This document shows positions 17,645-37,773 of a stretch of 41,383 nucleotides of DNA, one piece after another. The DNA is taken from contig JBBQSL010000005.1 of the NCBI GenBank assembly GCA_038213895.1, positions 1 through 41,383 of the forward strand, written 5' to 3'. Every line of letters begins with the position of its first letter. Within the stretch, counting starts at the first letter, position 1. Under the pieces are notes generated by a model. That model was not told where the DNA came from. It made no database searches and saw only the letters and a list, made by a program, of their open reading frames with translations. This DNA comes from Kiritimatiellales bacterium. Its GTDB lineage: Bacteria > Verrucomicrobiota > Kiritimatiellia > Kiritimatiellales > Tichowtungiaceae. A program made the position numbers and the translations under genes.

Positions 17645-19217
17645 GGGTCTTCCGTTTCTTTTTTCCCTGAGTCAAAAGCGTTTCAGTAGTTTGGACGTAG
17701 AGATTGAACAAAAACTCCACGCGGGTGGTTTCGGTGGTGAACGGTTGCGGACGGTAGCAGAGATCCACCGCACGATCCAACTCCTGATGGGCTTTCAGCA
17801 GGTCAACCGGCCTATAACGGGTCGCCTTGATGTACCAAGCCGTCACATAATCCAGCACTCCCGAGCCTTTAACCTTGGCAAAAATATCCGCCATCTCTTC
17901 ACGTTGCGTTTTAGACTGATACTTACTGCCGACAAATGGCGGATTGCCGAAAATGAAGTCGGATTTCTCCCCTCGGCGGGTTTTGAGTTCTTCAACCTCC
18001 TCTTCGGTCAAGATGTTGACTTTTTTGGCGGCGACATTGATTGCGCTGTAGTGTACCGGCGGCTCTTCGACTTTCATAACATTCTGCGTGTCCGCGCTGA
18101 GGTCGATATAGCTACCGGAAATCAGATGATCCCAATCAAGCCGCAATGCGTTGCCGTATGTGATATGCGCCGATTTTTTCAGCGGCAGGCGAACGAAATA
18201 CTGCCCGAATTCTTCGGAAACGAGCATGTTCATCTGGTGATCCATCAGCCACAGGGCAACTTCGGCAATCCGCGCGAGCCACTCTTCGTATTCAATGCCG
18301 TAGAACTGATCGACATCAATCCATAGTATGTCGGAGACATCGAGTACCGCCGGCCCGCCTTTGTGAAGTTCACGGAGAATTTCCAGCTCCAGCAGACGCA
18401 GCTCGCGGTAGGTGATGATCAAAAAATTTCCGCAGCCGCAGGCTGGGTCGAGAAATTTGAGTTTGGAAAGCTTTTCGTGGAATTCGACCAGCTTCTTGCT
18501 GCTTCCCTTACACTTCTTAAATTCAGCGTACAAATCATCCAAAAACAGCGGCCCGATGAGTTTGAGGATATTTTTTTCAGAGGTGTAGTGCGCACCCAAA
18601 TTACGCCGCGCCGTCGGGCTCATCACGGCCTGAAACATTGAGCCGAAGATTGCCGGAGAGATTTTTCCCCAATCGAGCGCACAGCATTCCAACAAAATTT
18701 CCCGCATCGCGGAGGTGAACGCGGCAATCCGTAGCGGCTCTTCGAACAGTCTGCCGTTGACGACGTAAGGAAATTGATTCAGCAATTCCTCGGTCGCGGA
18801 CTGTCGCGTTTCGCGCGGTGTGTCCAAGGTTTGGAAAAAGTCTGCCAGCACCGCGCCCAGATTATAGAGCCGGAAACGCTCGAAGTCGGAAACCAGCACA
18901 TATTTCGGTAACTCGTGCTCCTTGAGACCGCTGAAATAATCCAGCGCCTGCGAATAGGCCTTATCCAGATTTTTGCCGCGCGATTTATGCTCAACCAGCA
19001 GAGTCCCCTTCCAGAACAGGTCGATAAATCCGGTCTGCGCGTTCAGCTTTTTGACCGGCTTCTCGAAAGAGGCCACGCGGCGGCGGGAAATGCCGAAAAT
19101 GTGGAAAAACTCATCCCAAAAGGTCTTGGCCTCGGCGTGTTCACGGGTTTCGGCTTTCCAATCATTGGAAAACTTCATTGCCCGAGTTTTCATCTCATTC
19201 CACGATAAGGTTGCCAT
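17637..19217 (-). CDS. MmeI-family (type IIL RM / PglX-like) N6-adenine DNA methyltransferase, truncated form lacking the target-recognition domain; probable remnant
   Basis: MmeI-type N-terminus 'MATLSWNEMKTRAMKFSNDWK'. SAM motif I 'FLDPACGCGNFL'. Motif IV 'NPPF'. The family's C-terminal helix 'ELDRAVDLCY...RVEFLFNLY' follows directly. Only 526 aa, whereas intact members are about 900-1200. Overlaps ygiQ by 8 nt (ATGTCTGA). Confidence 0.6.
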   Translation of the reverse strand: MATLSWNEMKTRAMKFSNDWKAETREHAEAKTFWDEFFHIFGISRRRVASFEKPVKKLNAQTGFIDLFWKGTLLVEHKSRGKNLDKAYSQALDYFSGLKEHELPKYVLVSDFERFRLYNLGAVLADFFQTLDTPRETRQSATEELLNQFPYVVNGRLFEEPLRIAAFTSAMREILLECCALDWGKISPAIFGSMFQAVMSPTARRNLGAHYTSEKNILKLIGPLFLDDLYAEFKKCKGSSKKLVEFHEKLSKLKFLDPACGCGNFLIITYRELRLLELEILRELHKGGPAVLDVSDILWIDVDQFYGIEYEEWLARIAEVALWLMDHQMNMLVSEEFGQYFVRLPLKKSAHITYGNALRLDWDHLISGSYIDLSADTQNVMKVEEPPVHYSAINVAAKKVNILTEEEVEELKTRRGEKSDFIFGNPPFVGSKYQSKTQREEMADIFAKVKGSGVLDYVTAWYIKATRYRPVDLLKAHQELDRAVDLCYRPQPFTTETTRVEFLFNLYVQTTETLLTQGKKKRKTHV

Positions 19218-19358
19218 AGATGGAGAATCAGTTTCTTTAAGTTCAAAGTCAAGATTCCGGGTCACGAGGAATTCTAGGGTTTCCAATCCTTGGAAAATTT
19301 ATTCGACCTGATCGAAACGGCAACTTACTATGCAGGCCTGATTTAACTCAAAAAAAAC

Positions 19359-22300
19359 ATGCAACCATTAGACACCAATCTTTTTCTCGGCCTCTACCGA
19401 CACATGCTCGCATCGCGTAAAGCCGATGTCGTTCAGGAAGACGCCGCCCATCGCGGTGAGGCGTTTTTCTATGTCCCCTCCTCCGGCCACGAGTCGATGG
19501 CGGCACTGGCTCCTCATTTAACGCCGACGGACTGGCTGCACTGCCACTACCGCGACCGCGCGTTGATCCTCGCCCGCGGCGTCACACAAAAAGATCTGCT
19601 ACTCGAACTGCTCGGCAAAACCGGTTCACCCTCCGAGGGTCGCAACATGCCGGGATTTCCCTGTAACCGCCAGCTGAACCTGATCGGCGCCCCAACTGGC
19701 GTCGGCAGCAATACGGTGCAGGCCGTCGGTATCGCGCAGGCGATTAAGAACAGCAGCGACATCGTTTATTGCGGTATCGGCGATGGAGGCACACAAGAAG
19801 GCGAATTTTTTGAAGCCGTAGCCGAAGCCGTCCGCTCGCAGCTTCCCGTACTGTTTGTCGTCCAGAATAATCGTTACGCCCTTTCCACGCTGTCCAAAGG
19901 TCGCACCTTCTTTTCCCTGCCTGACGGCGATGCCAAAGAGTTCTACGGACTGCCGATTCTACGCGTTGATGGTACCGACGCCGTCGCAACACACCGCGTT
20001 TTCGGTGAAGCAGTTTCCAAGATTCGGAAAACCCGCGGCCCGCAGATCGTCGTAATGAATATTGAGCGACTAACCAGCCACACCAACGCCGACGACCATA
20101 CGCTCTACCGCTCCGCCGACGACATTCGGGAAATGCACGAGAAGTCCGATCCAATTTTAAACATCGCTGAGAAGCTGATCGCCGCCGGTATTCCCGAAGC
20201 ACAGCTCAAAGCCATTGAACACGAGGTTAACCAAGAACTTATCGCCGCTTTTGACGCCGCCCGCCGCGCAAAAAATGCCAAAACGGAACTTAGCGCGAAG
20301 AAACCGCTGCCCGCAAAACTGACGGCGGCAGAAAGTGAAAAACGCACGGACGGCGACGCGCTGACCATGCTCGAAGCGATGCGCGCCGTACTCCGCGACC
20401 GGCTCGGTACCGATAAAGATGTCTATCTCTACGGCGAAGATATTGAAGACCCTAAAGGCGATGTCTTCGGCTTAACGCGCGGCCTAAGCACCGCATTCCC
20501 CGGACGGGTTATCAATGCCCCGCTCAGCGAAGCTACCATCGTAGGCGCAGCGATCGGTCAGGCTCTTGTCGGGAAAAAGCCGGTTGCCTGTATCCAATTC
20601 GCCGACTTTATGCTTCCCGCTTTCAATCAAATCGCCGCCGAACTCGGCGCGATATGGTGGCGCACCAATGGACAATGGGAATGCCCCGTTATTTTGATGG
20701 TAATCTGCGGGGCTTATCGTCCCGGACTCGGCCCGTACCACGCACAAACGTTCGACGCAACCTTTGCGCATATTCCCGGTCTCGATGTTTTTATGCCTTC
20801 GACCGCCGCCGATGCCGCCGGTCTGCTCAACGCCTCCTTTGAGTCTGGACGTCCGACCGTATTCCTTTTCCCGAAAAATCTGATCAACGACCGCTCCGTC
20901 ACCGCCTCTGCCGACGCGGCGCAACAATTCGTACCCATCGGCAAAGCGCGCGTCACCCGTCCGGGCCGCGATCTCACTATCGTCAGCTGGGGCAGTACCG
21001 TACCGCTCTGCGAAAAAACAGCCGATGCACTGCAAACTGCTGGCGCGTCTGTCGAAGTAATTGATCTACGCTCGCTCGTTCCGTGGGATCAGGAAGCCGT
21101 TATCGCCTCCGCACAAAAAACAGGAAAATTGCTCGTCGTCCACGAAGACAACCATACCTGCGGATTCGGCGGCGAAGTGCTGGCCACGGTTGCCGAAAAA
21201 GCCAATGTTCCGGTGCAGATGGCGCGCGTCGCTCGGCACGACACCTACATTCCCTATCTCTTTGAAACGCAACTTGAGGTGTTGCCGTCATTCCGCACCG
21301 TACTCGGCAAAGCCGCCGAACTGCTCGACTACTCGCTGACGTGGCGAAAACCGATCGAAGAGGCCGAAGGCTTTGTAACCGTCAACGCCATCGGCTCCAG
21401 CCCGTCGGACAAAACAGTAAAAGTGACCGAACTGCACGTCAAAGTTGGACAAACCGTTAAAGCGGGCGAATTACTCGCTTCCGTCGAGGCCGACAAAGCC
21501 ACGATGGAAATTTCCGCGCCCGCGAGCGGAACCGTCGAAGAGCTCTTCTTGGCTGAAGGCGAGTCAGTAGATGTCGGCACCCCGCTGGCCCGCATCGCTA
21601 CCGAAGAAATCAGTCTCATTAAAAAACCGATTACCAAAGACGATCCCGGCACTCCGGTGCTGGAAAAACGAACGACCCTTGCTCCGCAGAGCGGTAAAAC
21701 CGTTACCGACGAGAGAAAACCGGTATTGATCTCTTCGATTGCCACCGTGCTCGGCTCGCGCCACATCACCAACGAAGAGCTGCTGCAAGGCCATGGAGAA
21801 TGGGATTCTGAGGCGATCCGCTCGCGTACCGGCTGCGAAAACCGTTACTGGATCACCGGCGACGAAAATGTCGAAACGCTGGCGGTCAAAGTCGTGCGCG
21901 ACCTGCTCGAAATGGAAAAACTGACGATTGCCGATATCGACGCACTCGTCTGTTCAACTGGCACCCCGCTAGCCATGACGCCATCGCTCGCCTGTCGCGT
22001 CCTCAAAGAACTCAGCCCCACCAAAGGCGAAGTCCAAATGCAGGCTCACGACATTAGTGCCGCCTGTTCGGGCTACATGTACGCCCTGCAAAACGCCTGT
22101 GACATCTTACGCGACGATCCGACAAAGAAAGTCATCATCATCACCGCCGAAACGCTTTCACCGATGATTAATCACGAAGATCAAAAAACACTGGCGCTCT
22201 TTGGCGATGCGGCGACCGCCTCGTTACTTTCCTGTGAACCGCGCGGCGGCAACGTCAATATTCTGGTGAACCGACCGGTTCTTTCCGCTACCGGCGTGGA

Positions 22301-22682
22301 TGAAAAAGTTCTCTACGTTCCTCACATGGGCAGCGGCAAGGTCATCGAAATGGAAGGACTCACCGTTTTCAAGCTCGCCGTACGCAAGATGATCGACATG
22401 CTCGCCGAAGCCTGCGAAAGCCGAGGCATCGCTGTGGATGCGCTTGATATGATCGTACCGCACCAGGCCAATGAACGAATTATCGAAGCCATTCGTAAAA
22501 CCATCCACTGCCCGCCGGAAAAAATGTTTAACCACATCCGTAAATACGCCAACACCTCGTCGAATACCATACCGTTCGCGCTGGTCGAGCTGATGCCCCA
22601 AATGAAAAAGGACGCACTGGTCGGTCTCACTGCATTTGGTGGCGGCTTCACCTTCGGCGCGGCCGTCATTGAAAAGCAATAA
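19359..22682 (+). CDS. four-domain fusion: 2-oxoacid dehydrogenase E1 alpha (TPP) + E1 beta + lipoyl domain + 3-oxoacyl-ACP synthase III (FabH-like)
   Basis: One uninterrupted 1107-aa ORF. Domains are listed by approximate residue ranges in the 1107-aa ORF. Residues 1-310: E1 alpha ('YRHMLASRKAD', TPP motif 'GIGDGGTQEG', 'VVQNNRYALST'). Residues 330-655: E1 beta ('LYGEDIEDPKGDVFGLTRGL', 'IQFADFM', 'VEVIDLRSLVPWD'). Residues 665-745: lipoyl domain ('VEADKATMEISAPASGTV'). Residues 770-1107: KAS III with a Cys-His-Asn triad ('AACSGYMYAL', 'VPHQANERII', 'ANTSSNTIPFAL', 'GGGFTFGAAV'). Confidence 0.85.
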   Translation: MQPLDTNLFLGLYRHMLASRKADVVQEDAAHRGEAFFYVPSSGHESMAALAPHLTPTDWLHCHYRDRALILARGVTQKDLLLELLGKTGSPSEGRNMPGFPCNRQLNLIGAPTGVGSNTVQAVGIAQAIKNSSDIVYCGIGDGGTQEGEFFEAVAEAVRSQLPVLFVVQNNRYALSTLSKGRTFFSLPDGDAKEFYGLPILRVDGTDAVATHRVFGEAVSKIRKTRGPQIVVMNIERLTSHTNADDHTLYRSADDIREMHEKSDPILNIAEKLIAAGIPEAQLKAIEHEVNQELIAAFDAARRAKNAKTELSAKKPLPAKLTAAESEKRTDGDALTMLEAMRAVLRDRLGTDKDVYLYGEDIEDPKGDVFGLTRGLSTAFPGRVINAPLSEATIVGAAIGQALVGKKPVACIQFADFMLPAFNQIAAELGAIWWRTNGQWECPVILMVICGAYRPGLGPYHAQTFDATFAHIPGLDVFMPSTAADAAGLLNASFESGRPTVFLFPKNLINDRSVTASADAAQQFVPIGKARVTRPGRDLTIVSWGSTVPLCEKTADALQTAGASVEVIDLRSLVPWDQEAVIASAQKTGKLLVVHEDNHTCGFGGEVLATVAEKANVPVQMARVARHDTYIPYLFETQLEVLPSFRTVLGKAAELLDYSLTWRKPIEEAEGFVTVNAIGSSPSDKTVKVTELHVKVGQTVKAGELLASVEADKATMEISAPASGTVEELFLAEGESVDVGTPLARIATEEISLIKKPITKDDPGTPVLEKRTTLAPQSGKTVTDERKPVLISSIATVLGSRHITNEELLQGHGEWDSEAIRSRTGCENRYWITGDENVETLAVKVVRDLLEMEKLTIADIDALVCSTGTPLAMTPSLACRVLKELSPTKGEVQMQAHDISAACSGYMYALQNACDILRDDPTKKVIIITAETLSPMINHEDQKTLALFGDAATASLLSCEPRGGNVNILVNRPVLSATGVDEKVLYVPHMGSGKVIEMEGLTVFKLAVRKMIDMLAEACESRGIAVDALDMIVPHQANERIIEAIRKTIHCPPEKMFNHIRKYANTSSNTIPFALVELMPQMKKDALVGLTAFGGGFTFGAAVIEKQ

Positions 22683-27649: not shown

Positions 27650-28336
27650 TTAAAGATTTTTCCGTGCGACACTGAGAATGGCTGAGGCGACCTGAAGATC
27701 ATCAGGAGTCCGAATTTTCATATTCCCTGTCGAGCCGGCTACCAAATGAATCTCCTGCTTCCCTTTAGCAAGCAACTCAGAATCATCGTCCAGCAGTTTG
27801 CCGGTACCCTTTAACATCTTTTTTAAAACGTCGATTTTATAAACCTGAGGGCTTTGCACCAACCAAATGGTATTTCGGTCGAGCGATTCTGAGACCTTCT
27901 GCCCTTTTTCGGCTAATTTTACAGCTTCTGAACTTTTTACAGCGGCCACAGCGGCACCATATCGTTTGCCAGCTTTGATGGTTTCCGTGATGATATCATC
28001 CGTTAAAAATGGCCGGGTGGCTTCATGGATAAGCACCGCGGTTGCATCGTCCGGAATCCTCTCCATTGCATTTCTCAGATTAGCCAGCCGGGTCGATCCG
28101 CCAGCGACAATGGCAGAAATTTTGCGGCATCCAAAAGAACGTACTGTATGTAAGGCACTATCCACACGCTCTTTACGTACAACAAGTACCATGCCTTCAA
28201 TAAGCGGATTTTGCTCCAGCATTTGAATGGATCGTGCGACAACCGGACGGGAACCTAGCGCAAGAAATGCCACATCTATGCCAGATCCAATCTCCTGATC
28301 TTTCCCACACGCTAACACTATTGCCCATGCTGACAT
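27650..28336 (-). CDS. ispD: 2-C-methyl-D-erythritol 4-phosphate cytidylyltransferase
   Basis: 228 aa. 'AIVLACGKDQEIGSGIDVAF' N-terminus and the overall pattern fit IspD. Confidence 0.7.
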   Translation of the reverse strand: MSAWAIVLACGKDQEIGSGIDVAFLALGSRPVVARSIQMLEQNPLIEGMVLVVRKERVDSALHTVRSFGCRKISAIVAGGSTRLANLRNAMERIPDDATAVLIHEATRPFLTDDIITETIKAGKRYGAAVAAVKSSEAVKLAEKGQKVSESLDRNTIWLVQSPQVYKIDVLKKMLKGTGKLLDDDSELLAKGKQEIHLVAGSTGNMKIRTPDDLQVASAILSVARKNL

Positions 28337-28471: not shown

Positions 28472-29407
28472 TTATGCGCCTTCGGTACGGAGACGCGGAT
28501 CAAGCGCGTCGCGCAACGCATCGCCGAGCAAATTGAAGGCTAAAACTAATCCAAAAATGGCCAGCGTAACGAAGGTCATTTCCCACCAAACGCCCTGCCA
28601 GAGCCGCATGCGGGCACTATTGATCATAATACCCCACGACGGTTCGTTCTGGACACCGATACCAAGAAAACTCATGAAGACTTCCGTGCTCACGGCCGCC
28701 GGGAAACGTAGCGTAAAAGTTACGATTACGACGTGGAAGACGTTGGGAAGAATGTGACGGAAGAGAATCCGCGGCCAACTCAGCCCTAGCGCTTTCGCCG
28801 CCTGCACATAGGCCTGCTCCTTATGTTTGATCACTTCACCGCGAATCAGACGGCACAGTCCGACCCACGTGGTAAGTCCGATGCCGAGATAAATTCCCAT
28901 CAGCCCCTTTCCGACCACCATAGCAATGGCAAGAATGAAAAGCAGCCCCGGCATCGAAGCGACAGTAGAATAAAGCCAGACGACAAAGCTATCCACCCTG
29001 CCACCAAAATAGCCCGCCAGACAGCCGAAGAAAACGCCGATCGGAATAGCAATCAGCGCGGTGATGATACCAACCTTATAGGCAATGCGCGTCCCCTGAA
29101 TCAGACGCTGCATCACGTCACGACCCAACGCGTCAGTGCCCATCCAATGTTTGGAATATGGAGATTGATAGGCCTGATTCAGATCGGTCTTCTGATAAAA
29201 AGCAGTCTGATCTTTCGCCTTATAAACCTGATAAACCGCTTCGCCATAAACGGCCAGCGCGGTGTAAAAAACGACCACCCCGAGACAAACCATCGCGAGG
29301 CGGTTCTTTTTCAATCGCCGCCAAGCGTCGGACCAGAGCGAGATTCCTCGCTCCGGAGTTCTCGGCGGTCGGGGTTGGGGGTCAGTCCTTGAATTTTGAT
29401 ATTTCAT
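28472..29407 (-). CDS. peptide ABC transporter permease, OppC/DppC-like
   Basis: N-terminal 'SLWSDAWRRLKKNRLAMVCLGVVV' and the transporter motif region. Its ATG (29407-29405) and the first codons lie inside the left end of the adjacent transposon. Confidence 0.8.
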   Translation of the reverse strand: MKYQNSRTDPQPRPPRTPERGISLWSDAWRRLKKNRLAMVCLGVVVFYTALAVYGEAVYQVYKAKDQTAFYQKTDLNQAYQSPYSKHWMGTDALGRDVMQRLIQGTRIAYKVGIITALIAIPIGVFFGCLAGYFGGRVDSFVVWLYSTVASMPGLLFILAIAMVVGKGLMGIYLGIGLTTWVGLCRLIRGEVIKHKEQAYVQAAKALGLSWPRILFRHILPNVFHVVIVTFTLRFPAAVSTEVFMSFLGIGVQNEPSWGIMINSARMRLWQGVWWEMTFVTLAIFGLVLAFNLLGDALRDALDPRLRTEGA

Positions 29408-30456
29408 TCTTCATCTCCAACAAAGCACCCTCTGTCACCACTTCAACCTCGCGAACCGCTCTTGAAATCGTCGCCGCGTGACCCATATTTAACGCCTCGG
29501 AAATCCATTCGTTCTTTACGCTCGTATTCCGGCGAATAAGCCATGCGATAACCTTTTTCCGGTCATCGCCTTTTTTCAGCTTTTGCAACATCTCACGGTT
29601 AACTTTCAGGACGTCCAGACCGTTCCCAAGAAGTTTTTCAGCAGCCTGTTTATCATGTCGCGCAACGGCTCCGCCGCTGTGCGAATCCCGGCGTTTTCCC
29701 ATTGCAGCATTCTCCAGAGCACCGCGCACTTGTGAACAAAACTCTGCGGATCCGAAAATCCATCCCCTTCGGATCTGATCCCACATCTCATCCGCTTTCG
29801 CTGGGTTGTCGCTATGCAGAATGGCCAGGACTCTCTTCTGCATGGCCTTGCGATAGGCCGCTCTTCCGAGTGCTGTATCCTCAAAACTGCAACTCTTCAG
29901 AACCCGGTCCACCGTCAGCCAGCCGGGCCGCTCCGAAGGATAAAGATATCCCCGAAAACTGCTCCATTTGAAATCAGAAAGTGTGCCCTTCTCTAGATCA
30001 AAACAGTTCGCCCGCACCGGATTCAAATGAATATAACTGGATACAGTAGAAAAATACTCTCCACCATCTACCAAAAGGGCTTTATATCGGCCTTGGAAAA
30101 GATGACCCCAGACCTTATGCCGGGCATTAAAGCGCTGAGTATACGTCCCCTGAAGCCACCGCATACCATCCACGAGATTCGGTTCCGGTGTTTCCAGCAG
30201 AAGATGATAGTGATTACCCATCAGGACAAAGACGTGGACTCTCCATCCACATCGATTGCACGCATCCCCGAGAGTTTTAAGAAACATCTCGTGATCCTGC
30301 TGGTCTTTAAAAACCGGATCCTGACGGTTACCGCGGCACATCACATGATATACTGCCCCGGGGAATTGAACTCTTAACGGTCTTGGCATGAGAATCATGT
30401 AAACAAACTACAAAGGTAGCGTCAATCGAAAATATCAAAATTCAAGGACTGACCCC
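29378..30456. mobile_element. insertion element carrying a Y1 (IS200-like) + DnaA-HTH transposase, bounded by 27-bp perfect terminal inverted repeats
   Basis: 29378-29404 is GGGGTCAGTCCTTGAATTTTGATATTT. 30430-30456 is its exact reverse complement. A single gene lies inside. The right flank has a tandem 11-bp duplication GACCCCACTAA (30451-30472). Confidence 0.7.
29382..30398 (-). CDS. transposase: N-terminal Y1 HuH (IS200-like) domain + C-terminal DnaA-type helix-turn-helix
   Basis: 'VYHVMCRGNRQ' and HuH 'MGNHYHLLLE'. The C-terminus 'KVIAWLIRRNTSVKNEWISEALNMGHAATISRAVREV' is a DnaA-C-like HTH. The stop codon sits in the left inverted repeat. Confidence 0.75.
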   Translation of the reverse strand: MILMPRPLRVQFPGAVYHVMCRGNRQDPVFKDQQDHEMFLKTLGDACNRCGWRVHVFVLMGNHYHLLLETPEPNLVDGMRWLQGTYTQRFNARHKVWGHLFQGRYKALLVDGGEYFSTVSSYIHLNPVRANCFDLEKGTLSDFKWSSFRGYLYPSERPGWLTVDRVLKSCSFEDTALGRAAYRKAMQKRVLAILHSDNPAKADEMWDQIRRGWIFGSAEFCSQVRGALENAAMGKRRDSHSGGAVARHDKQAAEKLLGNGLDVLKVNREMLQKLKKGDDRKKVIAWLIRRNTSVKNEWISEALNMGHAATISRAVREVEVVTEGALLEMKNEISKFKD

Positions 30457-30473: not shown

Positions 30474-31787
30474 TCATTTCAATTTGACCCGTGGATCGAC
30501 TAGGGCGTAACAAATGTCGGTTAAGAGGTTGGCTATAACAAAGAGGATCGAGCCGACCAGCACGATAGCGCGAACGACGTCGACATCGGATGAGTTGATG
30601 GCGTTGATGCCGAGGTAGCCGAGACCTGGGATGCCGAAGAAGCTTTCCAGCAGCAGACTGCCGGTATAAAGAAACGGTATGGCGATAACGGTGTTGGTGA
30701 TGATCGGGATCATCGCGTTTTTCAGAACGTGTTTGAAAAGCACCCCGAGTCGACTGACGCCTTTGGCCTGAGCGGTGCGGACATAGTCACGGTGCGCCTC
30801 GTCGAGCATGATGGTACGGTAGAAGCGCAATTCAGCGCCAAGACCGCTGAATACGCCGATCAGTACCGGCAGTATTAAGTAACGTGGATCCTCAAATCCC
30901 CAGACTGGGAACCAACCCGCTTTGAAGGCGAGCAGATACTGTCCGGCAACAATCCAGACGAGATAGTTGACGCTCATCAGCGCAACCGAAAAGACGACGA
31001 AAAAGCGGTCCACCCAGGTATCGCGCCAGAAGGCACAAAAGAGCGAAAGCATGATGGCGGTTATCAGGCCCGCGAAGAAAATAGGCACAGCCAACATCAG
31101 TGACGGGCCGATGCCGTCGCTCAGCAGTTTGGAAACACGCTGATTCGTACTGCTCGAAACGCCAAAGTCGAGATGCGCCAACCGATTGAGGTAAAACATG
31201 AACTGCGAATCGAACGGATTATTCATCACGCGACGCAATTTAATGGCACGAATTTCCACTGGGGCAGTTCCCGGAATGATTTTCCCCACGGTTTGAAAGC
31301 GCAGACGGATTTTTTTCCAATCATTGGAAAGTTTAAGCTGATTTTCTCCAAACGTTGGAAATCCGCCAGCGCGTCCTTCGATTTCGAGTTCGTATTCACA
31401 ATCGGTGCGCAGAGCAAATTTAAGCGGAAACTCATATTCTCCGCCAGCAGCAAGAACGATCATACCATTAGTCCAGATGACGCCCGCCGCTCCCTGCCAG
31501 TCGCCTGCGGTACGTTCAAAGTCCGAGTCAGCATAGGCGCGAGTCCCAGTGCTGGAACCAACAAAAAGCGGTTTATTAAATCCTCGCTGTTCATCGAACT
31601 CTTCGAGGGCCTGCGGTGAAACATGCTGTCCGAGGACTTGCAACGCCGGACTGCCGCCGACGATATTAAATAGTACAAACGTAATCAGAATGACGCCGAA
31701 CACCGTCGGGATCATCTGCACTATTCGTTTGGTAATATAGCGAAGCATGAGCATCTGGAATGTTGGAATAGAGGAAGGATGGAACAT
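30474..31787 (-). CDS. peptide ABC transporter permease, OppB/DppB-like, with an enlarged periplasmic loop of about 130 aa
   Basis: Conserved permease core ('YVRTAQAKGVSRLGVLFKHVLKNA'). 437 aa against the usual roughly 310. Confidence 0.75.
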   Translation of the reverse strand: MFHPSSIPTFQMLMLRYITKRIVQMIPTVFGVILITFVLFNIVGGSPALQVLGQHVSPQALEEFDEQRGFNKPLFVGSSTGTRAYADSDFERTAGDWQGAAGVIWTNGMIVLAAGGEYEFPLKFALRTDCEYELEIEGRAGGFPTFGENQLKLSNDWKKIRLRFQTVGKIIPGTAPVEIRAIKLRRVMNNPFDSQFMFYLNRLAHLDFGVSSSTNQRVSKLLSDGIGPSLMLAVPIFFAGLITAIMLSLFCAFWRDTWVDRFFVVFSVALMSVNYLVWIVAGQYLLAFKAGWFPVWGFEDPRYLILPVLIGVFSGLGAELRFYRTIMLDEAHRDYVRTAQAKGVSRLGVLFKHVLKNAMIPIITNTVIAIPFLYTGSLLLESFFGIPGLGYLGINAINSSDVDVVRAIVLVGSILFVIANLLTDICYALVDPRVKLK

Positions 31788-31829: not shown

Positions 31830-33710
31830 TCATTCCCCCCTTCCATTATTCCGTTTCCAAGCGTTCCACGCCGCGTTGTCGATGCGGCGAAATTTGACCA
31901 TGGTATAAGGAAAATCGTGAAGCGTGTAGTTTTTCAGCCAGTTATGGATAACGGCAAAGTCCATGGGCTGGTACATGTAAATCCACGGACAATCTTCGAC
32001 AACCAGATCGGCCATCTGTTCGCAGAGGCGGTCTTTTTCCGGGCCGGGCAACATGGTGCGCAACTGATCGTAGAGTTTGTCGAAATCTGGATTGATGTAG
32101 TTGGCGTGATTAGGGCCGGGCGAAACATTCGCGCCATAGAAAAGCTGAAGGAAGTTTTCGGAGTCCGGGTAGTCGGCGATCCAGCCGAGTTCAAAAATCT
32201 GCGCCTGACGGCGATCCAGCTTGTCGAGAAAGGCTGGCCAGTTATTGTAGCTGGCCTTCAGTACGACGCCCACTTTATCAAACATACTGGCGACCAGCTC
32301 GATCGCCTGCCGCATGTCAGCGGTCGCGTTACCCAGCTCGATATTCAATTCAAGCCGACGTCCGGTTGCCGGATTAATTCCGTCTGGGTAACCGGCCTCA
32401 GCCAAAAGCTGTTGCGCTTTTTCAAGGTTGTACGAATAAGCCGTCGGCACCGGCTTAAAGCCAGCCAACGGAGCAGGCAAAGGGCCGTAAACGGGAGCAA
32501 CACGTCCGTTATAATACTTGACCAATAATTCCGGATGAAACGCACAGCTCAGCGCCTGCCGCAGCTTTTTATTTTTTCCGACGACTGGGTCGTCCAGATT
32601 GAAGCCAATATAATAAGGGCTAAGCGTCGGGCTGGAAAGCAGATCGACGCCCTGCTTTTTAAGGTCTTCGACGAGACCGCTGTCGGGCTTGATGACGGCA
32701 TCCCAGTTGTCGCGCGAAATACCGCTATAGCTGAACTGTCCGGAGAGAAACATCATCCAGGTGGTCGCGGCGTCGTCCACGACATACTGCACAATGCGGT
32801 CAATAAAGGGAATCTGCTTTCCGGCATCGTCGAGCAGTCCGGCGGCGCGGGCTTCTTCCGGGCCGGTGGATGGATAAGTTTCGATCCGGCCAGTTTCAGC
32901 CCACTTGGGATTGCGGATAAACTCGATGCGATAGTTGCTCTTATACTGGCTGAGAATGTACGGACCGGTGCCGACGGGATGGTTAATAAATTCACTGCCG
33001 TAAAATTCGACCGCCTCGCGCGGCACGGCAAAAGCATAGTTCATGGCCAGTACCCACAAAAGCTGCGGATATGACCCCTTCAGCTTAAACTGCAACGTAT
33101 ACCGATCCAGCGCGCGCAACCCTTCGACACCGCGGTTATAATCGGTGGGCGCAGTTCCGGACGAAGCGGCGCGGAATTCATCAAGACCGAGAATCCGGTT
33201 ATTGAAAGCCCAGTAGCCGGAGGAAGCTGTTTTCAAATCAGCAACACGTTTGAGGGAATAAACAAAATCCTCTGCGGTCAGCTCGCGGCCCTTGCCGCTG
33301 GGAAAACAGACATCGTCTTGAAAATAAATGCCTTGGCGCAGACGGAACGTGTAAGTGAGTCCGTCTTCCGAAACCTCGGGCATGGCGGCGGTAAGCATTG
33401 GCTGAAGACGGTATGGCCGGTCTAAAAAGGAATACTCCAGCAGCCCTTCATAGAGGCGTCCGACCAGCGCGGATGATGTGACATCGCCTGCACGGGCAGG
33501 ATCGAGACTTTTTATGCGGGAGGTCTGCCCGTAGAGCACCTGTTCGCCTTCGAAACGAAGGGTATCAAGCTCCTGCCGTCCGCAGGCGGAAATAAATAAA
33601 CAGAAGAATATCGAACAGCCGAAGCGAAGCGGAGACAGGCTTAAGCGAGGCGAAAGCAATGAACGAAGGGAATGGCAACGAATAATAAATAATGAAGTAA
33701 ATTTGCGCAT
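31830..33710 (-). CDS. ABC transporter substrate-binding lipoprotein, family 5 (OppA/DppA-like)
   Basis: Lipobox 'FISAC'. Family-5 SBP core. Start taken at the ATG at 33710, which avoids overlap with secG; the tabulated ORF extends to 33839. Confidence 0.75.
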   Translation of the reverse strand: MRKFTSLFIIRCHSLRSLLSPRLSLSPLRFGCSIFFCLFISACGRQELDTLRFEGEQVLYGQTSRIKSLDPARAGDVTSSALVGRLYEGLLEYSFLDRPYRLQPMLTAAMPEVSEDGLTYTFRLRQGIYFQDDVCFPSGKGRELTAEDFVYSLKRVADLKTASSGYWAFNNRILGLDEFRAASSGTAPTDYNRGVEGLRALDRYTLQFKLKGSYPQLLWVLAMNYAFAVPREAVEFYGSEFINHPVGTGPYILSQYKSNYRIEFIRNPKWAETGRIETYPSTGPEEARAAGLLDDAGKQIPFIDRIVQYVVDDAATTWMMFLSGQFSYSGISRDNWDAVIKPDSGLVEDLKKQGVDLLSSPTLSPYYIGFNLDDPVVGKNKKLRQALSCAFHPELLVKYYNGRVAPVYGPLPAPLAGFKPVPTAYSYNLEKAQQLLAEAGYPDGINPATGRRLELNIELGNATADMRQAIELVASMFDKVGVVLKASYNNWPAFLDKLDRRQAQIFELGWIADYPDSENFLQLFYGANVSPGPNHANYINPDFDKLYDQLRTMLPGPEKDRLCEQMADLVVEDCPWIYMYQPMDFAVIHNWLKNYTLHDFPYTMVKFRRIDNAAWNAWKRNNGRGE

Positions 33711-33762
33711 AACTCTTACTTCATCATTCGGAGTCCCTAATTCGACATTAAATATTCTGCCT

Positions 33763-34107
33763 TTATTCCACAGGAACAGATGGCATTTGCACCGGAACCT
33801 GGGGCATAGCGGGCTGTTCCATCGGAATTGGCTGTGCAACGGCTGCCTTATCCAGAATCGACTCGTTGGCGCTACCGGCGAAAAGAATACCGAGAACCAG
33901 CGTGTTCACCAGAAATACGACCCCGATAACAACGGTGGCCTTGGTCAACACGTTACCGGCCCGTGCGCCGAAAAGTGAATCGCCGCCGCCAGATCCGAAC
34001 GCCATGCCGAGGCCTCCGTTTTTAGATTTCTGCAACAGAATCAAGCCAATCAGCGCCAAACTGCACGCCGCTTCAAGAATGATAAGTAATGTACGAATAA
34101 CAGCCAT
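33763..34107 (-). CDS. secG: preprotein translocase subunit SecG
   Basis: 'LIGLILLQKSKNGGLGMAFGSGGGDSLFGARAGNVLTK' is the SecG signature. Lies downstream of tpiA, the conserved arrangement. Confidence 0.85.
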   Translation of the reverse strand: MAVIRTLLIILEAACSLALIGLILLQKSKNGGLGMAFGSGGGDSLFGARAGNVLTKATVVIGVVFLVNTLVLGILFAGSANESILDKAAVAQPIPMEQPAMPQVPVQMPSVPVE

Positions 34108-35278: not shown

Positions 35279-36181
35279 TTAGGCCCAGAGATTTTCGGGG
35301 TAAACACCGGCAGTGACGAGCGCGCGGATACCCGCCATTACTTGCGGCTTGTCGTCGGCATAGGTGACGCCCATCCATTTTTCGTTGGTAGGCAGAACCT
35401 CTACAGTGGTCTGGCCACGTTTGATCAGGTCGTCAACGACTTCCAATAAGAAAAATTCACTTTTGAGTTCTGTTCCGCGCCGCGCGAGAAATTCAGCAAA
35501 GCCCCGATCCAACGCTTCGAACAACCCCGGTGTGAAGCCCCAGGTGTTCATGGAAACCATATCGTCGTCGGCCATCGGTTTCAGTTCGTTATTTTCTTCA
35601 TACCGAATCACGCCGTCCGCTTTGCGCTCAATGTTGTAGCGCTCGACAATGTGCCGAAGCTTCCCGTTCTGCACGTCACAGAAACCACGCGCCACGCCAC
35701 CGTAAGGCGATAGCGTGTTTTTGATATAAAAGCCGACCATGCAACTTTCGGTGCTTTTCACGTCCATTGCCATCAGCCGTTTAGCGATGACTTGAAACGA
35801 TTGGCATCCATAAAAGTCGTCGGCGTTAATTACCGCAAACGGTTCGTGAACGACGGGGCGCGCCATAAGAACCGCCTGACCGGTGCCCCACGGTTTGGTG
35901 CGACCTGCCGGCATCAAAAATCCGGACGGAAGTTTGTCCATGGTTTGGAAAACGTATTCGACCTGAATTTTTCCGTCGAGCTTACGTCCGATCACTTCCT
36001 TGAAGGCTTCTTCGATATCAGGACGAATAATAAAAACGACTTTGCCGAAACCCGCTTGAATCGCGTCGTACACTGAATAATCCAAAACAATTTCGCCGGA
36101 CGGGCCGACGGGGTCAATCTGTTTGAGCCCGCCGTAGCGGCTACCGATTCCTGCGGCCATAATCACGAGAGTTGGTTTCAT
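35279..36181 (-). CDS. sugar-phosphate nucleotidyltransferase (NTP-transferase fold)
   Basis: Gly-rich NTP loop 'LVIMAAGIGSRYGGLKQ' and 'VINADDFYG'. The start overlaps the upstream gene's stop by 4 nt. Confidence 0.6.
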   Translation of the reverse strand: MKPTLVIMAAGIGSRYGGLKQIDPVGPSGEIVLDYSVYDAIQAGFGKVVFIIRPDIEEAFKEVIGRKLDGKIQVEYVFQTMDKLPSGFLMPAGRTKPWGTGQAVLMARPVVHEPFAVINADDFYGCQSFQVIAKRLMAMDVKSTESCMVGFYIKNTLSPYGGVARGFCDVQNGKLRHIVERYNIERKADGVIRYEENNELKPMADDDMVSMNTWGFTPGLFEALDRGFAEFLARRGTELKSEFFLLEVVDDLIKRGQTTVEVLPTNEKWMGVTYADDKPQVMAGIRALVTAGVYPENLWA

Positions 36182-37620
36182 AGAAGACTTCCAAGGATTA
36201 GAACGCCGATGCTAAGCGCACCGATCAGCCAGGTCTGCGGATCGCGAGCGGCAAATTCAAGCGGATCATCGGACAGCTCTCCCCGGGCGGCTAGCAACCA
36301 GACCCGAGCGATCCAATATAAAAACAGCGGACAGATTAGCCAAAGTACCGCCGGATGGTTATAAAATTGCACAACCTTTTCGCTGTTGATATATAGCGCG
36401 AGAACCAGCACGGCGACACATCCGCTGCCGGTACCAAAGCCGGCCAGCATCGGCAGATCGGCGGCGCAGTACCCGCGTCCGCGCACCAGAACCTTTTCAC
36501 CCTGATCCAGCGAGGCTTCACGCAGTTCGGCGTAGCGTTTGACCATGGCGAGACTAAAGAAAAGGAAAATAGAGAACGCAATCAGCCACGTTGACGTTTC
36601 GATATCATAGGCCGCCGTACCCGCGAGAATACGAATCGCATAGAGCCCCGCCAAGGTCATCACGTCGAGCAGCGCAACCTGCTTGAGTCTCCATGAATAA
36701 AGCGTGGTAATGACGAGATAAATCAGCAGAACGGCAATAAAGGTTCGCGACAGCATCTGCGCAACGCCCAGTGCCGCCAGAACAAGTAACGGCGAAACAA
36801 CAACTGCCATTTTCAAATTCACATTGCCTGCCGCGAAGGGACGGTTTTTTTTGCGCGGATGATGTTGATCCGCATGCAGGTCGAAGAGGTCGTTGAAAAT
36901 ATAAATGGCCGACGCCGCAAAACTGAAGGCAAAGAATGCGAGTACGGCTTTGACATACAACGCGGGCGTTGTCAGTTCGTGCGCCAGTATCATTGGCAGG
37001 AAAATGAGGCTGTTTTTTGTCCATTGATGAATGCGTAGCGCTTTGAGCCAGGTTTTCAGCCGCGCCGGACGGTCTTCGAACAGTTGCACAGTCTGGTTCT
37101 TGAGTGCACGGCGTACCGATCCACAAGGATTAACGACGATAATCTCGGTGGCGGCTTCCCAGACCGGCAGATCATCGGTGGAATTACCGGCATAATCGAA
37201 CCCTTTTTCGCCGAAGCGGGCAACGAGCGCGTCGCGCTTACAGGCGGCTTTAAGATTAGTAACTCCATCGCTGGCCATGACCTCTGAGAAAAGACCGAGA
37301 TGCGCGGCAACGGCGCGGGCGGGGGTCTCGTCCGAAGCGGTCACTAAAATCAGTTCGCGACCTTTCTCCCGCTCGGTTTTCAAAAAGGCCAGCAGACCGG
37401 GATGGTATGGTAAGGCGGCTGGGTCGAGCTGTATCTCCTGCGCGACCTGCCGCTTAAAAGCGGCCAGCCCATTGGCGGTCCAACGCGGAATAGAAAACAA
37501 TATTTCTGGCCGGGTACGGATGAGTAGTAACAAGGCCTGCGCAAAGGTGTCGGTCTTCACCAGTGTTCCATCGAGATCAACGCACAGCGGGATTTCCCCT
37601 TTTTCAGGCTTCTCAGTCAT
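36178..37620 (-). CDS. fusion of HAD-superfamily phosphatase (N-terminal) and UbiA-family prenyltransferase (C-terminal)
   Basis: N-terminal HAD motif I 'CVDLDGTLVKTDT'. The C-terminal half has eight or nine TM helices and the UbiA aspartate-rich motif 'NDLFDLHADQHHPRKKNRPFAAG'. Confidence 0.75.
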   Translation of the reverse strand: MTEKPEKGEIPLCVDLDGTLVKTDTFAQALLLLIRTRPEILFSIPRWTANGLAAFKRQVAQEIQLDPAALPYHPGLLAFLKTEREKGRELILVTASDETPARAVAAHLGLFSEVMASDGVTNLKAACKRDALVARFGEKGFDYAGNSTDDLPVWEAATEIIVVNPCGSVRRALKNQTVQLFEDRPARLKTWLKALRIHQWTKNSLIFLPMILAHELTTPALYVKAVLAFFAFSFAASAIYIFNDLFDLHADQHHPRKKNRPFAAGNVNLKMAVVVSPLLVLAALGVAQMLSRTFIAVLLIYLVITTLYSWRLKQVALLDVMTLAGLYAIRILAGTAAYDIETSTWLIAFSIFLFFSLAMVKRYAELREASLDQGEKVLVRGRGYCAADLPMLAGFGTGSGCVAVLVLALYINSEKVVQFYNHPAVLWLICPLFLYWIARVWLLAARGELSDDPLEFAARDPQTWLIGALSIGVLILGSLL

Positions 37621-37773
37621 GCGCGGCAGTATTCAGAAGATTGCCGGCAAGTTCAATCCTGTTTTATCCCACTTAAAATTTCATAGTATTCATCTCCTTC
37701 GTTTTACATTGTAACGGCAACCCCCGATCTGTTCAAATTGGCAATGAGCTGAAGTCCTTGGAATATTGAAATA

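What the first reader, a model, noticed from the sequence alone, without database searches (positions are those of the whole stretch)
35279..37620. HAD-phosphatase/UbiA-prenyltransferase fusion translationally coupled to a nucleotidyltransferase: a candidate polyprenyl-phosphate-linked sugar or polyol pathway
One ORF of 480 aa joins a HAD hydrolase domain (DxDGT motif) to a UbiA-type membrane prenyltransferase (NDxxDxxxD). It overlaps by 4 nt a 300-aa NTP-transferase-fold enzyme. By analogy with mycobacterial decaprenyl-phosphoribose synthesis, where a UbiA transferase and a phosphatase act consecutively, the fusion could make and dephosphorylate a lipid-linked intermediate. The nucleotidyltransferase would activate the head group. 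The product is unknown.
Basis: inference. Interest (0 to 1): 0.5.

Follow-up and report, generated by a model that had tools for sequence, protein, structure and literature searches.

The report
Polyprenyl-phosphate ribose synthase–phosphatase fusion gene
The 480-aa gene is an ordinary member of a very large, recently characterised enzyme family that makes a lipid-linked ribose donor for decorating cell-surface glycans, and the sugar-nucleotide enzyme overlapping it is most likely a neighbour from a separate sugar-salvage pathway, not its partner.

Summary
Both ORFs, both domains, the motifs and the 4-nt ATGA overlap are real.

The HAD–UbiA fusion is not an unknown. It matches the full-length NCBIfam model PRK08238 (621 bits). 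Its closest solved relative by sequence and fold is M. tuberculosis decaprenyl-phosphate phosphoribosyltransferase. It keeps every residue shown by mutagenesis to matter in Citrobacter youngae ORF15, the characterised enzyme with the same architecture (PNAS 2024). [quoted passage not shown] Homologues in other phyla are followed by DprE1/DprE2-like epimerases. PRPP is the donor, so no nucleotide activation is needed.

The 300-aa nucleotidyltransferase belongs to an uncharacterised family (PDB 3pnn):
- It follows the fusion in 16 of 20 Kiritimatiellales loci and in 0 of 52 loci from other phyla.
- None of 80 loci sampled with the nucleotidyltransferase family as query has the fusion nearby.
- Orthologues 75–79% identical end a NahK kinase–epimerase operon, once in the same genome where the fusion stands alone.
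- Its recurrent partners are anomeric sugar kinases, which suggests a UDP-sugar pyrophosphorylase.

Verdict: a new member of a known kind, of low interest. The glycan acceptor, flippase and transferase in Kiritimatiellales remain unidentified.

The parts
36178..37620 (-). Gene for the 480-aa bifunctional enzyme: N-terminal HAD phosphoribose phosphatase (PRP) joined to a C-terminal UbiA-fold polyprenyl-phosphate phosphoribosyltransferase (PPPRS)
   Evidence: ORF; NCBIfam NF006088/PRK08238 at 620.8 bits against a cut-off of 351, residues 6-478; Pfam UbiA plus HAD; 3,620 clusters at 50% identity with E<=1e-30, the top 150 all full-length two-domain proteins
37096..37590 (-). HAD (PRP) domain, approximately residues 11-175, predicted cytoplasmic
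   Evidence: Pfam PF12710 residues 15-153; pLDDT above 90 with an alternating strand/helix core; Foldseek matches to SerB-type HAD-IB phosphatases 3fvv and 3m1y
37564..37578 (-). HAD motif I, D15-L-D17-G-T19. D15 is the predicted nucleophile, equivalent to ORF15 D18
   Evidence: D15, D17 and T19 are invariant in 15 sequences from several phyla, as are T94, K128 and D150 of motifs II-IV; the role of ORF15 D18 is taken
36187..37068 (-). UbiA-fold membrane domain (PPPRS), approximately residues 185-478, nine predicted transmembrane helices
   Evidence: phmmer against PDB gives 8j8j Mtb DPPRS at E 4.4e-26, with the next UbiA-family hit at 2.4e-5; Foldseek top hit 8j8j_A with TM 0.77 normalised to the target and 28% identity; helices listed
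36868..36894 (-). First Asp-rich motif, N243-D244-x-x-D247-x-x-x-D251 (Mg2+/PRPP site); it lies 4 positions before ORF15 N247, D248, D251 and D255
   Evidence: Invariant across phyla; aligned to the NDvrDveAD motif of 8j8j; mutagenesis of the ORF15 residues is described
36517..36540 (-). Loop IV motif K361-R362-Y-A-E365-L-R-E, matching ORF15 R366 and E369
   Evidence: R362 and E365 are invariant; KRYAEL is identical in 8j8j
35279..36181 (-). Gene for a 300-aa sugar-phosphate nucleotidyltransferase of the uncharacterised 3pnn family; probably a UDP-hexose/HexNAc pyrophosphorylase
   Evidence: PDB 3pnn at E 1.2e-102 over the full length; only weak GalU/GlmU-type NCBIfam matches; orthologues lie in NahK-epimerase operons; neighbour statistics
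36178..36181 (-). ATGA stop/start overlap between the two genes, with GGAAG 9-13 nt upstream of the ATG
   Evidence: Sequence; the same 4-nt overlap occurs in at least 8 related loci
37708..37736 (-). Promoter-like -35/-10 pair upstream of the fusion, in the 153-bp divergent intergenic region shared with the SpoU methylase gene
   Evidence: Consensus scan only, 9 of 12 positions matched; weak evidence

Best explanation
The 480-aa protein is a bifunctional polyprenyl-phosphate ribofuranose synthase. [quoted passage not shown] The fused HAD domain then removes the 5'-phosphate and leaves polyprenyl-P-ribofuranose. This is a lipid-linked donor that, after flipping and possibly epimerisation, a GT-C glycosyltransferase would use to decorate an envelope glycan or protein outside the cytoplasm. 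The enzyme family, active-site residues and fold are shown here. The activity itself, the lipid and the final acceptor are inferred from the characterised homologues. The overlapping 300-aa gene encodes a separate enzyme, a sugar-1-phosphate nucleotidyltransferase of the 3pnn family. It most likely converts hexose or N-acetylhexosamine 1-phosphates made by anomeric kinases (NahK, GalK) into UDP-sugars. In a sub-lineage of Kiritimatiellales it came to lie directly behind the fusion and is probably co-transcribed and translationally coupled with it, but it does not feed the UbiA domain.
For: Fusion identity:
- NF006088 scores 620.8 bits against a cut-off of 351 over residues 6-478. The next-best models are all decaprenyl-phosphate phosphoribosyltransferase (167, 149 and 123 bits), while UbiA proper scores 42 bits.
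- Mtb DPPRS 8j8j is the top PDB hit by sequence (E 4e-26) and by fold (TM 0.77).
- D15, D17, T94, K128 and D150, and N243, D244, D247, D251, R362 and E365, are invariant in 15 sequences from several phyla. They correspond to the ORF15 residues D18, N247, D248, D251, D255, R366 and E369 tested by mutagenesis.

Family context:
- Homologues 39-49% identical are followed by a DprE1-like FAD oxidase in 32 of 47 loci and a DprE2-like SDR in 25 of 47.
- Those loci also carry GtrA, EamA or Polysacc_synt flippases and candidate GT-C genes.

Nucleotidyltransferase:
- It lies directly downstream of the fusion in 16 of 20 judgeable species-level Kiritimatiellales loci and in 0 of 52 loci from other phyla.
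- None of 80 loci sampled with this family as the query has the fusion nearby.
- Orthologues 75-79% identical end an operon of PIG-L, NagB-like, NahK and epimerase genes in L087-L089.
- L088 is from the same assembly (JAEIOF01) as L027, where the fusion has no such neighbour.
- The kinase matches NahK structure 4wh1 at E 1e-81.
- Unbiased neighbour clustering ranks the epimerase (13 loci), NahK-like kinase (11) and GalK (5) first.
- In a Rikenellaceae contig the gene directly follows GalK.
Against: - No enzyme of the Kiritimatiellales clade has been assayed.
- The ORF15 sequence could not be obtained, so the correspondence rests on motif positions and shared models, not a direct alignment.
- No flippase, GT-C or epimerase lies in the 41-kb window or in any of the 33 Kiritimatiellales loci, so the downstream pathway is not seen.
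- The 4-nt overlap is conserved in at least 8 loci, which argues for selected co-expression. A looser functional link, such as the UDP-sugar building the glycan that later receives ribose, is therefore not excluded.
- The substrate of the nucleotidyltransferase is inferred from gene context only. About three quarters of sampled loci show no kinase neighbour.
Confidence: 0.75

Rival explanations
1. One reading: the two genes form one biosynthetic unit, in which the nucleotidyltransferase activates a sugar or polyol head group that the UbiA domain attaches to a polyprenyl phosphate and the HAD domain then dephosphorylates.
For: There is a 4-nt ATGA overlap. The adjacency holds in 16 of 20 Kiritimatiellales loci, and the overlap itself is conserved in at least 8.
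Against: - The DPPRS/ORF15 clade uses PRPP, not a nucleotide-activated donor, and all PRPP/Mg-site residues are retained.
- No adjacency is seen in 52 loci from other phyla or in 80 loci sampled with the nucleotidyltransferase family as the query.
- Orthologues sit in NahK-epimerase operons, once in the same genome where the fusion is alone.
- The unrelated SpoU methylase gene is conserved next to the fusion in 21 Kiritimatiellales loci, more than the 17 in which the same clustering recovered the nucleotidyltransferase, so local synteny alone explains neighbours.
Confidence: 0.05
2. A soft functional link: the nucleotidyltransferase supplies a UDP-sugar (for example UDP-GalNAc or UDP-GlcNAc) for the backbone of the same envelope glycan that later receives ribofuranose from the lipid donor. 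Co-translation would then coordinate two inputs into one product.
For: Translational coupling is conserved within the clade. In Parabacteroides the family member precedes two glycosyltransferase genes. A UDPGP-family gene lies 2-4 kb away in 9 Kiritimatiellales loci.
Against: No glycosyltransferase, flippase or polymerase gene accompanies the pair in the window or in related loci. The pairing is lost in four species-level loci, and in the Pontiellaceae and marine relatives L003-L006, with no replacement nearby.
Confidence: 0.15
3. The database-style reading (JGI names): a 4-hydroxybenzoate polyprenyltransferase or quinone prenyltransferase fused to a phosphoserine phosphatase.
For: JGI source names for several homologues. 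The HAD half resembles SerB-type phosphatases in fold.
Against: TIGR01474 (UbiA) scores 42 bits against a cut-off of 275, the MqnP model scores 22.8 against 375, and MenA models do not appear. The DPPRS models, the 8j8j structure and the DprE1/E2 neighbours all point to phosphoribosyl transfer.
Confidence: 0.02

Closest known systems
Citrobacter youngae O1 ORF15 (AWU66546.1), a bifunctional PRP-PPPRS; Kelly et al., PNAS 2024 (PMC11127046)
   Same: Same domain order (N-terminal HAD phosphatase, C-terminal nine-helix UbiA fold) and about the same length. The nucleophile Asp and the N-D-x-x-D-x-x-x-D and R...E motifs sit at positions 3-4 residues before those of ORF15.
   Different: ORF15 sits in an O-antigen locus with its MATE flippase, GT-C (GT136) and, in serotype O2, an epimerase. 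The window gene sits among housekeeping genes with none of these. No direct sequence alignment could be made.
M. tuberculosis DPPRS Rv3806c (PDB 8j8j) with the separate phosphatase Rv3807c
   Same: Closest solved structure by sequence and fold, with the same catalytic motifs and the same two-step logic: phosphoribosyl transfer, then 5'-dephosphorylation.
   Different: In mycobacteria the phosphatase is a separate protein unrelated to the HAD family. The lipid is decaprenyl phosphate. The window protein scores below the equivalog cut-offs of the DPPRS models (167 against 234).
DprE1/DprE2-linked PRK08238 fusions of Acidobacteriaceae, Alphaproteobacteria, Kuenenia, Desulfobulbaceae and others (e.g. 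Cereibacter azotoformans pORIO1 ORIO_RS19585)
   Same: 39-49% identical over the full length, with the same NCBIfam family and invariant residues.
   Different: Those genes are followed by DprE1-like and DprE2-like epimerase genes, GtrA-type flippases and candidate GT-C genes, which implies an arabinofuranose donor. The Kiritimatiellales genes have none nearby.
PDB 3pnn, Porphyromonas gingivalis 'conserved domain protein' (for the 300-aa gene)
   Same: Full-length match at E 1e-102 and 54% identity, with the GxGSRYGxLKQ and NADDFYG motifs shared.
   Different: No function has been assigned to 3pnn. In P. gingivalis the gene stands alone among housekeeping genes.
Bifidobacterium longum LNB/GNB pathway: NahK, GalT (LnpC) and GalE (LnpD) (PMC6668579)
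   Same: Kiritimatiellales orthologues of the 300-aa gene lie in an operon with a NahK homologue (4wh1, E 1e-81) and a GalE/TviC-like epimerase.
   Different: A pyrophosphorylase-type NTP_transferase takes the place of the GalT-type uridylyltransferase. In the window itself the kinase and epimerase are absent.

Membership tests
Bifunctional PRP-PPPRS (ORF15 type; NCBIfam NF006088 / PRK08238) | Full-length match to the family model above its curated cut-off | tested here: met
   620.8 bits against a cut-off of 351; residues 6-478 match model positions 8-480 of 482
Bifunctional PRP-PPPRS (ORF15 type; NCBIfam NF006088 / PRK08238) | N-terminal HAD fold with the loop-I Asp nucleophile (ORF15 D18) and motifs II-IV | tested here: met
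   D15-x-D17-G-T19, T94, K128 and D150 are invariant across phyla; HAD-IB fold matches
Bifunctional PRP-PPPRS (ORF15 type; NCBIfam NF006088 / PRK08238) | C-terminal UbiA fold with nine transmembrane helices, closest to DPPRS | tested here: met
   Nine long helices between residues 197 and 479; 8j8j is the top hit by sequence and by fold
Bifunctional PRP-PPPRS (ORF15 type; NCBIfam NF006088 / PRK08238) | Loop II N-D-x-x-D-x-x-x-D and loop IV R...E (ORF15 N247, D248, D251, D255, R366, E369) | tested here: met
   N243, D244, D247, D251, R362 and E365 are invariant
Bifunctional PRP-PPPRS (ORF15 type; NCBIfam NF006088 / PRK08238) | PRPP-dependent formation of polyprenyl-P-ribofuranose, with the 5-phosphate intermediate accumulating in the Asp-nucleophile mutant | not testable with these tools
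   Needs the membrane assay described
Bifunctional PRP-PPPRS (ORF15 type; NCBIfam NF006088 / PRK08238) | Direct sequence similarity to ORF15 itself | not tested
Three-component extracytoplasmic pentofuranose glycosylation system (synthase + flippase + GT-C, with or without an epimerase) | A flippase (MATE, GtrA or SMR type) encoded with the synthase | tested here: not met
   None in the 41-kb window or among the recurrent neighbours in Kiritimatiellales loci. Such genes are present in homologous loci of other phyla. The rest of the genome was not available.
Three-component extracytoplasmic pentofuranose glycosylation system (synthase + flippase + GT-C, with or without an epimerase) | A GT-C glycosyltransferase encoded with the synthase | tested here: not met
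   No GT-C family was found among the window ORFs. The rest of the genome was not available.
Three-component extracytoplasmic pentofuranose glycosylation system (synthase + flippase + GT-C, with or without an epimerase) | DprE1/DprE2 or an ORF13-type epimerase (an optional component that sets the pentose) | tested here: not met
   tblastn with 16 DprE1/E2-like neighbours found nothing real in the window or in 33 Kiritimatiellales loci
Mycobacterial-type stand-alone DPPRS (NF008977, NF008978, NF008976) | Score above the equivalog cut-off | tested here: not met
   167.1 against 234, 149 against 207 and 123.4 against 474. It is a homologue, not an equivalog.
4-hydroxybenzoate polyprenyltransferase UbiA (the name given by JGI) | Match to TIGR01474 above its cut-off | tested here: not met
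   42.2 bits against 275.45
GalU-type UTP-glucose-1-phosphate uridylyltransferase (for the 300-aa gene) | Match to TIGR01099 above its cut-off | tested here: not met
   28.8 bits against 326.8; the PDB GalU entry 9o90 scores only E 1.5e-7 over residues 9-183
3pnn-like nucleotidyltransferase family (for the 300-aa gene) | Full-length high-identity match, including the GxGSRYGxLKQ and NADDFYG motifs | tested here: met
   E 1.2e-102 over residues 1-298; invariant columns are listed in alignment A2

The most novel reading that the evidence does not exclude
In Kiritimatiellales the synthase-phosphatase is a conserved, chromosomally 'orphan' core gene. It is 60-83% identical across the order and syntenic with housekeeping genes, with no epimerase, flippase or GT-C beside it. 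In one sub-lineage it is translationally coupled to a UDP-HexNAc/hexose pyrophosphorylase. This could mark an undescribed ribofuranose-containing envelope glycoconjugate in this PVC lineage, whose synthesis is co-regulated with amino-sugar salvage. It would use partner enzymes unlike the GT136, MATE and DprE components known from Proteobacteria and Actinobacteria.
Probability: 0.15. Interest if true: 0.45.

Novelty: new member of a known kind. Interest (0 to 1): 0.2.

Why it matters
For this locus the value is mainly corrective. Databases still call the gene 'UbiA family prenyltransferase' or '4-hydroxybenzoate polyprenyltransferase/phosphoserine phosphatase', whereas the evidence supports a specific reaction: PRPP plus polyprenyl phosphate gives polyprenyl-P-ribofuranose. 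That implies Kiritimatiellales, and thousands of other lineages carrying PRK08238 proteins, make lipid-linked pentofuranose donors and probably carry pentofuranose-decorated surface glycans that nobody has looked for.

A useful by-product is a functional lead for the uncharacterised 3pnn nucleotidyltransferase family. Its repeated pairing with NahK or GalK and a 4-epimerase suggests it is the pyrophosphorylase that channels anomeric-kinase products into UDP-sugars in Bacteroidota and PVC bacteria.

Tried and rejected
- The first literature query was too loose and returned only unrelated papers.
- Searches for papers on 3pnn, on AmgK/MurU in Bacteroidota as a possible identity of the 300-aa enzyme, on NahK-linked nucleotidyltransferases and on Kiritimatiella envelope sugars found nothing that assigns a function.
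- A MurU identity was considered and dropped. No MurU structure appeared among the PDB hits at E<=0.01, and the partners are NahK or GalK with a 4-epimerase, not a peptidoglycan-recycling set.
- tblastn with DprE1/DprE2-like proteins against the window and the Kiritimatiellales loci gave one spurious 73-aa hit, caused by an ORF that overlaps the end of the fusion gene.
- The terminator scan found nothing between the nucleotidyltransferase gene and tpiA, and fewer sites than the shuffled controls overall.
- Rfam and tRNA scans found nothing near the pair.
- The conserved lipoprotein gene that sits between SpoU and the fusion in 13 relatives is absent from the window.
- Foldseek on the full model returned generic SerB-type HAD matches and no solved phosphoribose-phosphatase domain. 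The HAD subfamily assignment therefore rests on the fusion context and not on a structural match.
- tpiA-secG downstream of the pair occurs only in this window and in none of the 86 fusion-containing loci, so it is not part of the unit.
Full report
**Observation**

The junction reads ...CTT CTA TGA overlapping ATG AAA CCA, which is a 4-nt ATGA overlap with a GGAAG 9-13 nt upstream. Pfam detects UbiA (82.9 bits) and HAD PF12710 (39.8 bits) in the first protein and NTP_transferase (37 bits) in the second, all above their gathering cut-offs. DLDGT lies at residues 15-19 and NDLFDLHAD at 243-251. The closest homologues come from Kiritimatiellales MAGs.

**What the fusion is**

The protein matches the full-length NCBIfam equivalog NF006088 (PRK08238) at 620.8 bits against a cut-off of 351, over residues 6-478. 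The next-best models are three decaprenyl-phosphate phosphoribosyltransferase (DPPRS) families at 167, 149 and 123 bits. UbiA proper reaches only 42 bits against a cut-off of 275.

Against the PDB, the best sequence hit is M. tuberculosis DPPRS 8j8j (E 4.4e-26). The stretches NDxxDxxADxxHPxKxxRPxAAG and KRYAEL align, and the next UbiA-family structure scores only 2.4e-5. An AlphaFold2 model (mean pLDDT 85.5, pTM 0.78) has an alpha/beta N-terminal domain followed by nine long helices. Foldseek ranks 8j8j first (TM 0.77 normalised to the target, 28% identity), and the N-terminal half matches SerB-type HAD-IB phosphatases.

The architecture has a characterised prototype, C. youngae O1 ORF15 (Kelly et al., PNAS 2024, PMC11127046). 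Its C-terminal UbiA-family domain transfers Ribf-5-P from PRPP to a polyprenyl phosphate, and its N-terminal HAD 'phosphoribose phosphatase' removes the 5'-phosphate. Residues D18, N247, D248, D251, D255, R366 and E369 were probed by mutagenesis. The window protein has D15, N243, D244, D247, D251, R362 and E365. These residues, with the other HAD motif residues D17, T94, K128 and D150, are invariant in 14 Kiritimatiellales sequences and in 15 sequences spanning several phyla.

The family is very large. It has 3,620 clusters at 50% identity with E<=1e-30, and the top 150 are all 466-546-aa proteins matched across both domains, apart from one 265-aa fragment and one 781-aa protein.

**Independent support from gene context**

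A scan of one genome per species returned 80 loci. In the 53 non-Kiritimatiellales loci (39-52% identity), the gene is typically followed by two others. One is a ~455-aa FAD_binding_4 protein whose best NCBIfam model is DprE1 (350 bits). The other is a ~255-aa SDR that scores 192 bits on the DprE2 model. They occur in 32 of 47 and 25 of 47 judgeable loci respectively.

Individual loci add further components. A Desulfobulbaceae locus (L082) has a Polysacc_synt flippase and UDP-galactopyranose mutase, Chelativorans (L044) has a small EamA-like transporter, and Polynucleobacter (L076) has a weak GT-C-like protein. On a Cereibacter plasmid the RefSeq annotation reads, in order: UbiA family prenyltransferase, GtrA family protein, hypothetical protein, FAD-binding oxidoreductase, SDR oxidoreductase, hypothetical 504-aa protein, flippase. 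This is the layout expected for lipid-linked pentofuranose donor pathways.

**What is different here**

The window has no flippase, GT-C or epimerase. The pair lies between a divergent SpoU methylase gene and tpiA-secG, near an Opp-type ABC transporter and ispD. No DprE1/E2-like gene occurs in the window or in any of 33 Kiritimatiellales loci. The downstream steps are therefore not visible, and the pentose finally transferred (ribose or an epimer) is unknown.

**The nucleotidyltransferase**

It is 54% identical over its full length to PDB 3pnn, a P. gingivalis 'conserved domain protein' (E 1e-102). It has no specific NCBIfam model, and GalU scores 28.8 bits against a cut-off of 326.8.

The adjacency to the fusion is lineage-limited:
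- It lies directly downstream in 16 of 20 judgeable species-level Kiritimatiellales loci, often with the same 4-nt overlap.
- It is absent in L019, L022, L023 and L027, and in the Pontiellaceae and marine relatives L003-L006.
- It is absent in all 52 judgeable loci from other phyla.
- The unrelated SpoU gene is conserved next to the fusion in 21 Kiritimatiellales loci, against 17 for the nucleotidyltransferase in the same clustering, which missed a few copies that tblastn found.

Where the nucleotidyltransferase is elsewhere, orthologues 75-79% identical end a conserved operon. The order is an AraC regulator, an unknown 426-455-aa gene, PIG-L deacetylase, a NagB-like gene, an APH-family kinase, an NAD-dependent epimerase, then the nucleotidyltransferase (L087-L089).
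- L088 belongs to the same assembly (JAEIOF01) as L027, where the fusion stands alone.
- The kinase is a full-length homologue of N-acetylhexosamine 1-kinase NahK (4wh1, E 1e-81).
- The epimerase is GalE/TviC-like.
- In Tichowtungia (L023) the fusion and this operon lie about 3-10 kb apart, separated by two minus-strand ORFs. The two units were therefore neighbours in at least one lineage.

A metagenome scan with an alignment of the family returned 80 diverse loci, mostly 47-56% identical to the window protein. None has the fusion nearby. Thirteen have a NahK homologue (10 within 300 bp), 4 have GalK and 14 have an epimerase. Unbiased clustering of neighbours ranks the epimerase, NahK-like kinase and GalK first. 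In Bacteroidales the gene stands alone in P. gingivalis, precedes two glycosyltransferases in Parabacteroides, and directly follows GalK in a Rikenellaceae contig.

The most economical reading is a UDP-hexose/HexNAc pyrophosphorylase acting after anomeric kinases. This resembles the Bifidobacterium LNB/GNB route with a pyrophosphorylase in place of GalT (PMC6668579). It is an inference from context; no paper or curated model assigns the function.

**Mechanism and rivals**

Shown here: the family membership, fold and active-site residues of both domains, and the restricted distribution of the pairing. Inferred: the PRPP-dependent two-step reaction, the lipid acceptor, the existence of a flippase and GT-C elsewhere in the genome, and the substrate of the nucleotidyltransferase.

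I give it about 5%. A softer link, in which both enzymes feed one glycan, cannot be excluded because the overlap is conserved within the clade. I give that about 15%. The aromatic-prenyltransferase reading implied by some database names is rejected on the model scores.

**Novelty**

The fusion is a new member of a known, characterised and very widespread kind. The gene pair is not a known unit, but the evidence suggests it is not a unit at all. What remains open is what Kiritimatiellales do with the lipid-linked ribose, since the gene there is conserved but has no recognisable partner genes beside it, and what the 3pnn family does.

Noticed in passing
window 19359-22682 (+): A single 1107-aa ORF joins 2-oxoacid dehydrogenase E1 alpha/beta domains (E1_dh, Transket_pyr, Transketolase_C), a lipoyl domain and a complete KAS III (FabH) module. 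This is an unusual fusion that could couple branched-chain 2-oxoacid decarboxylation directly to fatty-acid initiation.
   Followed up: no
window 29382-30398 (-): A 338-aa ORF with an IS200-like Y1 transposase domain (residues 16-124) sits between the two permease genes (30474-31787 and 28472-29407) of an Opp/Dpp-type ABC operon headed by the SBP_bac_5 gene at 31830-33839. It may be an insertion, or a domesticated REP-associated-type transposase.
   Followed up: no
window 17637-19286 (-): A 549-aa MmeI-like protein (N-terminal, methyltransferase and C-terminal domains) looks short for the family from my recollection of MmeI (~900 aa) and may be truncated. Its end overlaps the start of the radical-SAM gene at 15824-17644.
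   Followed up: no
L087 2442-8981; L088 3028-8903; L089 5949-9020; L023 14069-21387: A conserved Kiritimatiellales operon runs AraC regulator, unknown 426-455-aa protein (no Pfam or NCBIfam match), PIG-L deacetylase, NagB-like gene, NahK homologue, GalE/TviC-like epimerase, then a 3pnn-like nucleotidyltransferase. It is a candidate N-acetylhexosamine salvage or catabolic route.
   Followed up: partly
L092 4838-6909; L093-L172: The uncharacterised 3pnn nucleotidyltransferase family is widespread in Bacteroidales and other phyla, and recurrently sits beside NahK or GalK and a 4-epimerase. This suggests it is a UDP-sugar pyrophosphorylase standing in for GalT. No curated model or paper was found.
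   Followed up: partly
L005 9292-9948; L007 9252-9947 (13 Kiritimatiellales loci): A conserved 218-231-aa predicted lipoprotein (signal peptide with lipobox Cys, no Pfam match) lies on the same strand directly upstream of the fusion in 13 relatives. It is absent from the window.
   Followed up: partly
L001 13223-15007 (-) and eight further Kiritimatiellales loci: A ~594-aa UDPGP-family (PF01704) gene lies convergently 2-4 kb downstream of the fusion in nine Kiritimatiellales loci, including two that lack the adjacent nucleotidyltransferase (L019, L027). It is not present in the window.
   Followed up: partly
window 27650-28336 (-): An ispD gene (MEP-pathway cytidylyltransferase) is a second nucleotidyltransferase-fold gene about 7 kb from the pair on the same strand. 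It belongs to isoprenoid precursor supply, and there is no evidence of linkage to the fusion.
   Followed up: no
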